Shown: positions 40,082 through 64,000 of the stretch, piece after piece
Numbering within the stretch: position 1 is the first letter of the stretch
Layout of the letters: each line of letters begins with the position of its first letter
Origin: the human T2T-CHM13v2.0 reference genome, Homo sapiens
NCBI RefSeq assembly: GCF_009914755.1
Contig: NC_060930.1
DNA: 64,000 bases
Direction: 5' to 3' (one strand)
Made by a program: the position numbers and the translations under genes
Notes under the pieces: generated by a model
The model's database searches: none
What the model was told of the DNA's origin: nothing
Seen by the model: only the letters and a program-made list of their open reading frames with translations

Positions 40082-41839
40082 CTATTTTCATTCTAATTTA
40101 TCAATCCTACTGAAAAGCTTAGACTAAGGTTTAGTTTCTTAATATAATTTTCATTTTTATTATTTAATCCAATGTAAATTTTTATTAGACTACTCAATTT
40201 TAATACCAATTTCTCTGCATTTTCTAATGAGTTTCATCACTGTGGGGCACTGTATATTGCTATCAGATTGGTAGGGGGAGTGCATATTAGTTATCAGACT
40301 TCCCATAAATAATGCATATTCACTTAGGCAGTTTGGGTCAATACTGAAAGTTATTTCTTAAGGAAAGTAGAAATTGTCAAGTTAAAGAATAGGAGAAAGC
40401 AAATTGAAAAGAGAAAGGTGCTGAATTGTTGATCCTCCAGAGAGTAAGAATGTGTGATGAGTGCTGGAACACTCTGGGTAAATTTTTCTATTATGCTTTT
40501 GATGTTTAAATACTGAGCTTCATATTCAAAAGCTAGTTAATTGAAGAGGTTTTCCTGAAAGCTGTAGTAGAAAGACTCATGACCAAGCTACCTAATAACT
40601 TAATTATCTGGGTTTTATTTTATCATAATACCTAAATCAAAGAGAGGTTTCAAAAGAAATGGGAAATTTCCATGTTGGTTAGAGTTGAATGTGGCTGATT
40701 TCTCATTTACTATTAATGAAATAGAAGTTAGTTTAACTGGCAGGAAATTAATCAATATAAAGCTAAAATCATTACAGTTGTATGTTTTATTACGTATAGT
40801 AATTATACCTCTAGTAATATGCATTTTCTTACTTAACTCAAGGTAATAATTTAAAATATTATTAGGTATTAGATACATAGACATTCAGTATGTTGTTCAT
40901 TATGGGAAAAAAACAATATAAATGTCTAAAATTATACTGTTTTGGAAAAATATTTAACAACCCATAAAATGATCATAAAAATGATATTAAATTTAAAAGG
41001 ATAATAAAAATTAGTATATACCCTATGAATTCATTTTGTAAAATATCATTAAAAAATAATAAAACTATGCATATATAATACATTAACAATGCTTACCTCT
41101 CCATATAAGGATTATAAGTGTTTATAAATATTTTCTTCTATTGCTTATGTTTCTTTTGTGAGTGTCCTAAAATTAACATATTGCTTTTGCATGAGGAAAT
41201 GAAATGAATAAATTTTAAAAATATTTAATAAAATTTATTTTTCCATACAATTTATTTTTATTTTATTTAAATCAAATTTATTTTTCAATTCTTATATATT
41301 TACAGAACAAGTTAGCAGAAAGTACATAAAGTTTAGTATATCTACCCCACACCCATCCCAGACACACAGATTTTCCTATAATTAACATCTTGCTTTTATT
41401 TGGTACATTTCTTACAATTAATGAGCCAATACTGGTAAGTTTTTCAGAACTATCATTTATACTTTTGAATTTTAATAAAGTCAAATTTATCAATTTTTTT
41501 TCTTTAATCACACTGTTAGTGTTATATCTAAAAGCTCATTGACAAACCTAATGTCATCTAGGTTTTTTCCAATGCTGTATTCTAAAATTTTTATAGTTTT
41601 GTGTTTTGCACTTAGATTTATTTTATATTAATTTTTGTGCAATGTGTAAGGCTATGTCTAGATTCATATTTTTGCAAATAGATATCAAGTTGTTCCAGCA
41701 CCATTTGTTGAAAATATTATTCTTTCTCCATTAAATTGCCTTTGTTTTTTTGAAATAGATAAGTTGGCAATATTTGTGTTGCTCTCTATTCTGCTCTACT
41801 TATCAATTTGTCTATTACTTCCCCAATACATACTATCTT

Positions 41840-45159
<3,320 letters not shown>

Positions 45160-59340: not shown

Positions 59341-61042
59341 AATACCATTGTTATTATTTAAACTTCTTATGTTTAGAATGTTGTAGATTTATCATCAGCA
59401 CAAGTAAGCATCATGTTGATCTTACTTGTAGTCACAACTTCTTCTTTTTGCACCTACCTCTTCCTTAACCACTGGCAACCACTAATCTATTATTTTCTGT
59501 AATTTTGTTTTTTCAAGATTGTTACATAAATCAAACTGTACATCATCCTTTGGGATTGATTTTTCTCATGCAAAATAATTCTTTGGAGATTCATCCAGGT
59601 TATTGTGTGTATCAAAAGTCTAGTTTTTAAATAATGAATGGTATTCTATGTTACAGATATACAGCAGTTTGTTTAACCATTCACTCATTGAAAGGCATCC
59701 ATGTTGTTTCAAGTAATAAATAAAGAATAGCTTCCACTGACCATGCATTAGTGATCCAGATTCTTGCATCTTTTCTCACATTTGTTGTTGCCACTATTTT
59801 TTTTTATTTTAGCTATTCTAATAGATGTGTATGCTATATCATTGTGGTTTTAATTCACTTCCCCCTATGACGAATGATGTTCATGTTCTTGTTTGTCATC
59901 CATATAACTTCTTGGTTAAGTGTTTCTTTCAATCTTCTCATGGGCTTATTTGCCACCTATTTTACCTCTTTGATGAGATGTCTGTTTATGCCTTTGCAAA
60001 TTTTCTAATTGGATTGTTCATTTTTTTGCAGTTGAGTTTCGAGAGATCTTTATATATTACAGATACTAGTCTTTTGTAATATATGTAGTTTGTAAATATT
60101 TTCTCCCAGTGTGATTCTCATATTTTTATTTTCTTCAAAGTCTCCTTTGCAGAGCAAAAGTCTGTAAATTTTGATGTTCAATTTGTCATTTTTTTCACTT
60201 TTACATGATTTTGGTATCAAATCTAAGAATTCCTTGCCTAACATTGAATCCTAAAAATTATCTGTGTTTTTTCCTAAAGTTTTATAGTTTTATATTTTTT
60301 TCTGTGATCCTTTTTGAAGTAAATTTTGTGAAACGTGAGACTTACATTAAATGTAATGTTTTGCCCATGGATGTCTAATTGCCCTAACACTATTTTTTGA
60401 AAAGGCTGTATATATCCTTGATTGAATTACATTTGCACCTTTGTCAAAAATTGGTTGAACATATTTGCATGGTTCTAATGGGTTCTCTATTTTGTTCCAT
60501 TTATCTATGGATGTACTCCTTTGCCTTTATATAATATGACATAAAACTGAGTAGACTGATTTCTTATTTTTGCTCCCTTTAAAAATGGTTTTAGCTATTC
60601 TAAGTACTTTGCCTTTTCATATAAATTTTAGAATAATATTGTCTATGTCTACAAAAAGTCTTGCTGGGATTTGATTAAAATTATGCTAAAGCTGCATATT
60701 AATTTGAGGAAAATTAACATCTTTATTATGTTGAATCTTTTAATCCACTAATGGAATATGTCTCTCCATTTATTTAAATCTCCTTTGATTTCTTTCATCG
60801 GTGTTTATAATTTTTATTATACAAATCTTATACATGTTTTGCTAGATGTACACCTGAATATTTCACTTTTGATTGATTGTGAATCATACTCCATTGTTAA
60901 TTTCGGTGGACATATGGTTATTGCTAGTATATAAAATTATACTCTAATTGCATTGATATAGTAATACAATTGTTATGTACAGAAATCCAAAATATATCAT
61001 TCATCTTAGTACACTTTCCATGGGCACTTGAAAAGAAGGTGT

Positions 61043-61536
61043 CTCAATAGCAAAGACTTGGAACCAACCCAAATGCCCATCAATGATAGACTGGATAAAG
61101 AAAATGTGGCACATATTCACCATGGAATACTACGCAGCCATAAAAAAGAATGAGATCATGTCCTTTTCAGGGACATGGATGAAGCTGGAAGCCATCATTC
61201 TCAGCAAACTAACACAGGAACAGAAACCCAAGCACCACATGTTCTCACTCATAAATGGGATATGAACAATGAGAACGCATGGACACAGGGAGGAGAACAA
61301 CACACACTAGGGCCTGTCAGGGGGTGGGGGGCAAGGGGAGGGAGAGTATTAGGACAAATACCTAATGCATGTGGGGCTTAAAACCTAGATGATGGGTTGA
61401 TAGATGCAGCAAACCACCATGGCACATGTATACCTATGTAACAAACCTGCACATTTGCACATGTATCCCGGAACTTAAAGTAAAATTAAAAAAATATATA
61501 AATATATATATAAAATAAGTAAAAAAAAAATAAAAA
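61043..61536 (+). mobile_element. 5'-truncated L1PA8-like LINE
   Basis: ORF2 end ([21 protein letters not shown]) and 3' UTR ggacaaatacctaatgcatgtggggcttaaaacctagatg; A/AT tail. Confidence 0.92.
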
Positions 61537-61782
61537 TGCACTGAGGTGTTAGCAATACAATTAAATAGAGAAACATAAATACAGTTTTTCAGGATTTCAA
61601 AATGACTGCCTTCTTGCCTCTCAGAAAAGAAAGAAGACTCTATAATTCACAAAATGCCAGCATCTGTTGACAAGCCACATATATTTACTTTTATTTTTGT
61701 TATTATTGTCTTACTTATTTATCCTTATGCTCCTCCATTAAAACTGAGAGTTAACTGTTTATTACTTACATGAAAAAAGAAA
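61537..61782 (+). other. L1 3'-transduced segment with second A-tail
   Basis: Non-L1 sequence between the L1 tail and the downstream TSD; ATTAAA at 61737-61742; A-rich tail 61773-61782. Confidence 0.85.
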
Positions 61783-62471
61783 GAAAAGAAGGTGTATACT
61801 ACTGTTATTTTAGTGGAATGTTCTATAATAGTCAATTAAATACTACTGGTTCATGGTGTTAATTTCTTCTAGACTTTTGTTAATTTTCTAGTTATTCTAG
61901 AGAAAGGGATATTAAAATGTCCAACGATAATTATGGACTTAGCGATTTCTCCATTCATTTCTATCAATCAGTTTTTGCTTTACATACTTTGCAACTCTGT
62001 TGGTGCATTCACATTGACAATTGCTATTTTATACTTCTTGGTAGTTGATAATTTATCATAATATAATGTTCCTCTCTGTCTCTAGCAATTTTTTATGCTC
62101 TAAACTCTACTTTACCTGCTATCAATATAAGTAACCCTGTTTCATTTGATTAACATTTGCAAGATAAACCTTTTTGTATCTTTCTACTTTCAGCTCACCT
62201 ATATTTTAAGTGAGTCCTTTCTAAGCAGTATACAGTTGAGTCATGTTTTTCATTACATCCATCTAACCCATCTTTTTATTGGTATATTTAGATTGTTTAC
62301 ATATAATTATTGATATATTCTGGTATTACTTTCCTTCTGCTTGAAGAACTTTCTTTACATTTCTCATTCACATCTGATTCTGATTAATTCTCTTTGTTTT
62401 TTAAATTTCTAAAACAGGGTTTGATTTTTATTTTTGAAAGATGTTTTCACTTGGTAAATAATTTTGTGCTT

Positions 62472-62544
62472 CAGTTATACCTATGTAACAAACCTGCACA
62501 TTCTGCACATGTATCCCAGAACTTAAAGTAAAATTAAAAAAAGA
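62472..62544 (+). mobile_element. About 70-bp L1PA 3' tip with TSD
   Basis: tatacctatgtaacaaacctgcacattctgcacatgtatcccagaacttaaag; TSD taaa(t/g)aattttgtgctt at 62455-62471 and 62545-62561. Confidence 0.85.
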
Positions 62545-62828
62545 TAAAGAATTTTGTGCTTATAGTTCTTCTTTCAGTACTTTAAGGTGTTGCTTCACTG
62601 TTTTCATTCTAGCTTGCAATAGTTCCAACACATGTCTGCTGTCAGTCTCATGAATGTTTTTCTGTGTTTAGCATATCTTTTTCACTGAATGCTTTAAAAA
62701 TTTTGCATTGTTTCTGATTTTAAGCAAGTTGAATATATTGGTTCTTGACAGAATTTGCATCATATTTAGTGTTTGTGGGGGTGGGAAAGGGGTACACTAG
62801 GGATAGATAAGCTTTTTGGATCTGAGGG

Positions 62829-63191
62829 TGATATGGGTTTGCTGTGTCCTCACCCAAATCTCATTTTGAATTGTAGCTCCCATAATTTCCATGTATTATG
62901 GGAGGGACCCGGTAAAAGATATCTGAATCATGGGGAGGTTTTCCTCCATACTGTTCTCATGGTAGTGAATATGTCTCACGAGATCTGATGGTTTTATAAA
63001 GGGTTTCCCCTTTCACTTGGCTCTCATTCTCTTCTTGTCTGTCGCCATGTAAGATGTGCCTTTTACCTTCCGCCATGATTGTGAGGCCTCCATAGCCACG
63101 TGGAACTGTGAATCCATTAAACCTCTTTTACTTCATAAATTACCCAGTCTCAGGTATGTCTTTATCAGCAACGTGAAAATGAGCTACTACA
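62829..63191 (+). mobile_element. THE1B/C MaLR solo LTR
   Basis: tgatatgggtttgctgtgtcctcacccaaatctca...tatcagcaacgtgaaaatgagctactaca; about 363 bp. Confidence 0.92.
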
Positions 63192-63396: not shown

Positions 63397-64000
63397 GTTT
63401 TCTTTTTTTTATTATTATACTTTAAGTTCTAGGGTACATGTGCACAATGTGCAGGTTTGTTACATATGTATACATGTGCCATGTTGGTGTGCCACACCCA
63501 TTAACTCATCAGTTACATTAAGTATATCTCCTAATGCTATCCCTCCCCACTCCCCCCACCCCATGACAGGCCCCAGTGTGTGATGTTCCCCTTCCTGTGT
63601 CCATGTGTTCTCATTTTTCAATTCCCACCTATGAGTGAGAACATGCGGTGTTTGGTTTTCTGTCCTTGTGATAGTTTGCTGAGAATGATGGTTTCCAGCT
63701 TGATCCATGTCCCTACAAAAGACATGAACTCATCCTTTTTTTATGGCTGTATAGTATTCCATGGTGTATATGTGCCACATTTTCTTAATCCAGTCTATCA
63801 TTGATGGGCATTTGGGTTGGTTCCAAGTCTTTGATATTGTGAATAGTACTGCAGTAAACATACGTGTACATGTGTCTTTATAGCAGTATGATTTATAATC
63901 CTTTGGGTATATACCCAGTAATGGGATTGCTGGGTCAAATGGTATTTCTAGTTCTAGATCCTTGAGGAATCGCCACACTGTCTTCCACAATGGTTGAACT
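63397..64000 (-). mobile_element. L1PA4/5-like LINE 3' end, running off the window
   Basis: T-tail, ttaagttctagggtacatgtgcacaatgtgcagg, ORF2 C-terminus ORF 63730-63990. Confidence 0.93.

What the first reader, a model, noticed from the sequence alone, without database searches (positions are those of the whole stretch)
61030..61795. L1PA8 3' transduction carrying about 236 bp of foreign genomic DNA
Seen: a perfect 13-bp TSD gaaaagaaggtgt (61030-61042, 61783-61795) encloses the truncated L1, its A/AT tail, unique sequence 61537-61772, an ATTAAA 30 nt before a second A-tail, and that tail. The host old-L1 sequence reads continuously across the TSD (ccatgggcacttgaaaagaaggtgt|atactactgtt). Established: this is the signature of L1 read-through transduction. 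The tag should identify an ancient source element and any sibling insertions.
Basis: partly seen in the sequence, partly recalled or inferred. Interest (0 to 1): 0.7.

Follow-up and report, generated by a model that had tools for sequence, protein, structure and literature searches.

The report
L1 transduction with a vanished parent
An old jumping-gene (L1) copy on chromosome 6 carries about 240 bases copied from a unique spot on chromosome 3 where no L1 stands today, so its parent element was likely never fixed in our ancestors; it is a clean but ordinary case of a known process.

Summary
An exact 13-bp duplication encloses a 5'-truncated L1PA 3' end, an A/AT tail, a ~241-bp tag, an ATTAAA and a decayed 10-nt tail. 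Old-L1 paralogues read across the site with one copy of the duplication (11 of 11 that cross it; 19 examined). The tag has one other locus in the genome, C3:150310020-150310263 (-), 88% identical. That locus has the ATTAAA, a T-rich downstream stretch, no added tail and no flanking duplication, so it is the donor. Homology starts exactly at a TT/AAAA endonuclease motif: the donor looks like the empty insertion site of the source L1. Best reading: a 'parentless' 3' transduction, roughly 25-50 million years old, from a source L1 that likely never fixed. Parentless transductions are already described (dog, primates). The L1PA8 label could not be tested. Ordinary, with a neat, testable lost-parent prediction.

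The parts
61030..61042 (+). 5' copy of the 13-bp target-site duplication; the target reads TT/GAAAA, a one-base variant of the L1 endonuclease motif TT/AAAA
61043..61044 (+). two bases that do not match the L1 relatives (untemplated or mutated)
61045..61481 (+). 5'-truncated 3' end of an older primate L1PA element; best genomic relatives 91-93% identical; carries an 18-19-bp segment that two other L1PA 3' ends in the window lack
61482..61531 (+). first A/AT-rich tail (72% A), inferred to be the decayed tail of the source element
61532..61772 (+). transduced tag, homologous to G000:C3:150310262 down to about 150310018 (- strand); aligned part 61531-61770, 215 of 240 columns identical plus one 4-bp gap
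61737..61742 (+). ATTAAA poly(A) signal, conserved at the donor, 30 nt before the second tail
61773..61782 (+). second, decayed A-tail (10 nt), not aligned at the donor
61783..61795 (+). 3' copy of the target-site duplication

Best explanation
This is an L1 3' transduction whose tag comes from a unique locus on C3, and whose source L1 likely sat at that locus as a polymorphic insertion that never fixed. Shown: one duplication encloses L1, tail, tag and second tail; the donor is on C3, carries the poly(A) signal and has no L1 upstream; homology starts at a TT/AAAA motif. Inferred steps: a full-length older L1PA inserted at that motif, in sense to the tag. Transcription ran through its own weak signal and past one or two nearer hexamers (+29, +47), and ended about 30 nt after the ATTAAA at +210, ahead of a T-rich stretch. 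Target-primed reverse transcription at a TT/GAAAA site inside an old repeat on chr6 copied the tag and about 440 bp of L1 before truncating. The chr6 daughter fixed, and the empty C3 allele survived.
For: Exact enclosing duplication and one-copy host state. Single donor, E 1.4e-78, confirmed with three more queries. The donor has no added tail and no flanking repeat over 8 bp, which gives the direction C3 to chr6. The 5' homology boundary falls on five T followed by five A. 36 of 284 A-runs of 4 or more on that strand of the 19.4 kb are preceded by TT, and 5 of 284 by five T. The stretch 10-60 nt past the 3' boundary is 58% T, reached by 0.6% of 50-nt windows. Tag divergence (K2P 0.114, SE 0.024) is compatible with L1-relative divergence (mean pairwise 0.084, biased low by picking best hits). 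Parentless donors are common in print: 17 of 18 (PMC7980453) and 24 of 27 (PMC13141329) in dogs, and a 'no donor L1' class in primates (PMC4862182). Precise deletion of fixed elements is rare, 0.003% for whale SINEs (PMC10531181).
Against: The source element itself is not seen; its existence is inferred. No non-human primate genome could be read, so 'never fixed' is not separated from later loss. A boundary at an A-run is expected under any model that joins to a poly(A) tail, so the motif adds only about 8-fold (TT) of support. The second tail is short, and the donor has its own six-A run 8 nt past the last aligned base, so priming at that run cannot be excluded. The parentless cases in print concern recent, still-dimorphic insertions. 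The sibling search is seeded and gives lower bounds.
Confidence: 0.8

Rival explanations
1. The source L1 fixed at C3 and was later removed, either precisely by recombination between its two target duplications or by an ordinary deletion.
For: Precise removal would leave the same empty site. Precise deletions are documented (PMC10531181).
Against: Precise deletion is very rare for SINEs in that paper (0.003%). An ordinary deletion has no reason to end exactly at the tag start and leave an intact endonuclease motif. No L1PA residue lies upstream.
Confidence: 0.1
2. No L1 ever stood at C3: reverse transcription began on a polyadenylated RNA from the C3 locus and then switched to the poly(A) tail of an L1 RNA, or the two RNAs were ligated, giving a chimera in reverse order.
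For: No L1 at the donor. The donor has a good poly(A) signal of its own. An A-run at the junction would offer microhomology.
Against: The chimeras in the passages read from 10.1101/2025.02.02.635956 carry the non-L1 part 5' of the L1, although that pipeline looked only upstream. The junction is a full endonuclease motif, not just an A-run. No transcript of the C3 locus is known to me; this was not testable here.
Confidence: 0.07
3. Two separate events at one site (a tag-only retrocopy, then an L1 inserting at its 5' edge), or C3 is the copy and chr6 the original.
For: A second small L1 3' end of the same type lies 700 bp away, so the region took more than one insertion.
Against: Only one duplication, enclosing both parts; no repeat flanks the L1 alone among the direct repeats listed. 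The host repeat is interrupted by the whole block. C3 has no added tail or duplication.
Confidence: 0.03

Closest known systems
L1 3' transduction (Moran 1999, Goodier 2000, Pickeral 2000, Szak 2003: seen only as reference-list entries; definition read in passages of 10.1101/2021.07.12.451456 and PMC9311842)
   Same: One duplication around L1, tail, unique tag, poly(A) signal and second tail; interchromosomal donor; tag length inside the 7-997 nt range given in PMC9311842.
   Different: Older subfamily than the L1HS cases in PMC9311842; no source element at the donor; no sibling found.
'Parentless' 3' transductions (PMC7980453, PMC13141329, passages read; class 1 of PMC4862182, passages read)
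   Same: The tag maps to a locus with no adjacent L1; explained there by a source that segregated apart from its daughter.
   Different: Those are recent, dimorphic insertions whose parents may still segregate. This one is about 11% diverged from its donor, so the parent would be long extinct, and the empty site is resolved to the base.
U6/L1-type and mRNA/L1 chimeras (10.1101/2025.02.02.635956, passages read)
   Same: Single insertion joining L1 and non-L1 sequence within one duplication.
   Different: The non-L1 part lies 5' of the L1 there; here it lies 3' of the L1 tail.

Membership tests
L1 3' transduction (parentless class) | one target-site duplication enclosing L1 and tag | tested here: met
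   exact 13 bp, one copy in 11 of 11 crossing paralogues
L1 3' transduction (parentless class) | insertion at an L1 endonuclease-type site | tested here: met
   target TT/GAAAA, one base off TT/AAAA (motif as given)
L1 3' transduction (parentless class) | L1 3' end with A-tail, followed by non-L1 DNA in the same insertion | tested here: met
   no Rfam match in 59500-63000
L1 3' transduction (parentless class) | poly(A) signal in the tag 10-40 nt before a second tail | tested here: met
   ATTAAA 30 nt before a 10-nt tail; range from PMC9311842; the tail is short and decayed
L1 3' transduction (parentless class) | tag maps to another locus that lacks the added tail and an adjacent L1 | tested here: met
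   C3:150310020-150310263
L1 3' transduction (parentless class) | L1 and tag arrive together in the primate tree | not testable with these tools
   no related genomes are held
Transduction family with an identified source element | source L1 directly upstream of the donor, same strand | tested here: not met
   no L1PA in 9.1 kb upstream
Transduction family with an identified source element | sibling insertions sharing the tag | tested here: not met
   only chr6 and C3 in four searches; the 10 two-mismatch pattern hits do not extend
L1PA8 subfamily | best match to the L1PA8 consensus over L1PA7, L1PA8A and L1PA10 | not testable with these tools
   no repeat library. The element carries an 18-19-bp segment absent from two other L1PA ends in the window, and a 25-mer over it has 1687 genomic matches. 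That this segment marks L1PA8-age elements is my recall only
U6/L1-type chimera | non-L1 RNA copy 5' of the L1 | tested here: not met
   only 2 unmatched bases between duplication and L1

The most novel reading that the evidence does not exclude
No parent L1 ever existed at C3: the insertion is a reverse-order chimera, made when L1 reverse transcriptase started on a polyadenylated RNA from the gene-poor region beside the chr3 ZIC genes and jumped onto an L1 poly(A) tail. Some 'parentless transductions' would then not be transductions at all.
Probability: 0.07. Interest if true: 0.55.

Novelty: new member of a known kind. Interest (0 to 1): 0.27.

Why it matters
On its own, little: 3' transductions and parentless donors are both described, and the tag has no long reading frame (longest stop-free stretch 55 codons) and no annotated gene nearby. 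Its modest value is that it marks, to the base, where an extinct source L1 likely stood tens of millions of years ago. A genome-wide count of old transductions whose donors are empty endonuclease sites would measure how often ancient active L1s never fixed. That bears on selection against full-length L1s and on how well fixed copies represent past master elements.

Tried and rejected
Sibling search: the tag, its 3' half, the donor region with 1.6 kb of context (two weak hits fall outside the tag) and a 21-mer with up to 2 mismatches (12 hits, of which the 10 others do not extend beyond about 25 bp) all gave only chr6 and C3. Source search: the L1 part against 19.4 kb of C3 gave one 164-bp, 71% hit about 7.6 kb downstream and nothing upstream. 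A 10-mer from the donor start recurs 6039 nt away, an L1-like distance, but downstream of the tag with no L1PA between; rejected as chance. Shared variants: none of 29 best L1 relatives shares more than 4 of the chr6 copy's 16 differences from their majority, so no close sister. Rfam: nothing. An unbiased sample of the subfamily for dating was not obtained (one search gave places only). Szak 2003, Pickeral 2000, Khan 2006 and the journal version of Hoyt 2022 were not held. Two passages searched for an L1PA8 age gave only broad placements.

Full report
Observation. The anatomy is as described. The 13-bp direct repeat at 61030-61042 and 61783-61795 is exact, maximal and found only twice in the window. 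A recurring word that long was met at 4 of 5000 random positions. Between the copies lie two unmatched bases, an L1 3' end from 61045 (best relatives 91-93%; 40 of 10,794 candidates scored; junctions), a 72% A tail to 61531, unique DNA, ATTAAA at 61737 and a 10-nt A-tail at 61773-61782. To test that the repeat is a true target duplication, I aligned the flanks with 0, 1 or 2 copies to 19 paralogues of the host repeat (19 of the 39 found). Eleven reach at least 20 bp left of the site and all eleven prefer one copy; eight do not reach that far. The target reads TT/GAAAA.

Donor. The tag has exactly one other match in the genome, G000:C3:150310020-150310257 on the minus strand, 88% identical, E 1.4e-78. 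Local alignment extends it to window 61531-61770, with 215 of 240 columns identical and one 4-bp gap. The next two bases are TG on chr6 and CA on C3, which fits decay of one CpG on opposite strands (inference), so the tag likely ends at 61772. The donor keeps the ATTAAA, has a 58% T stretch behind the end point (top 0.6% of local windows), and has no added tail and no flanking repeat longer than 8 bp. C3 is therefore the original. One caveat: a genomic run of six A lies 8 nt past the last aligned base, so priming there cannot be excluded. The site lies about 144 and 159 kb from two ZIC-family zinc-finger exons.

The missing parent. There is none. The L1 part finds nothing in 9.1 kb upstream, only a 71%, 164-bp old fragment far downstream, and a single chance 12-mer upstream. 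Instead the homology begins in the middle of five T followed by five A, a TT/AAAA endonuclease motif. An L1 inserted there in sense would be followed by a duplication starting with those A's, which is what follows the first tail on chr6. So the human C3 locus reads as the pre-insertion allele of the source. The support is moderate. Any join to a poly(A) tail favours an A-run, and 36 of 284 local A-runs are preceded by TT, 5 of 284 by five T. Four searches found no sibling (checked); these searches are seeded and give lower bounds.

Age. Tag versus donor gives K2P 0.114, SE 0.024. With neutral rates of 1.2-2.2 per billion sites per year (recalled, not from a call) the centre lies at 26-48 million years, with a range of 15-67. 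The 29 best L1 relatives differ by 0.084 on average, an underestimate since they were picked as best hits. Both fit an older anthropoid or catarrhine L1PA. PMC5554003 places L1PA8 after the catarrhine-platyrrhine split (passages). The element carries an 18-19-bp segment missing from two other L1PA ends in the window; a 25-mer over it has 1687 matches with up to one mismatch, against 0 for the control. That this marks L1PA8 is recall; no repeat library was available.

Mechanism. Shown: single insertion, donor, direction, signal, empty donor. Inferred: a full-length L1 stood at the C3 motif and was read through past nearer hexamers at +29 and +47 to the signal at +210. The RNA was copied by target-primed reverse transcription into chr6 and truncated. 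The source then failed to fix (0.80). Rivals are fixation followed by removal (0.10; precise deletion was 0.003% for whale SINEs, PMC10531181, abstract and passages), a reverse-order RNA chimera with no parent (0.07; chimeras in the passages of 10.1101/2025.02.02.635956 carry the foreign part 5'), and two separate events (0.03).

Relation to what is known. 3' transduction is textbook. The T2T repeat preprint counts 183 high-confidence L1 3' events in this assembly (10.1101/2021.07.12.451456, passages). Its supplementary tables were not visible, so this locus may already be listed there in some confidence bin. Donors without an L1 are described as 'parentless': 17 of 18 in PMC7980453 (passages) and 24 of 27 in PMC13141329 (passages). 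PMC4862182 has a class with no donor L1 within 5 kb in macaque, orangutan and chimpanzee (passages). Those are recent insertions. Seven searches (listings only) showed no paper on this locus, but none searched its coordinates. Szak 2003, the paper most likely to discuss old human cases, was not held. I therefore make no claim that ancient parentless cases are unreported.

Verdict. A real, well-resolved L1 3' transduction of the parentless kind: new member of a known kind, interest 0.27.

Noticed in passing
window 62455-62561: A second, 71-bp 5'-truncated L1 3' end (62476-62546) on the same strand, 96% identical to 61429-61498, flanked by 17-bp direct repeats with one mismatch (62455-62471, 62545-62561): a separate small insertion of the same type about 700 bp downstream.
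   Followed up: partly
window 41837-42298 and 63404-63842 (- strand): Two other L1PA 3' ends that lack the 18-19-bp segment of the finding's L1 and are 14% and 10% from its relatives' majority; probably younger subfamilies.
   Followed up: partly
G000:C3:150151295-150166157: Two divergently oriented ZIC-family zinc-finger exons lie 144-159 kb from the donor site.
   Followed up: no
L021 (G000:C15:34992572-34993075): An L1 relative whose tail is followed at once by a second short piece of L1 3' sequence: a possible local duplication or second insertion.
   Followed up: no
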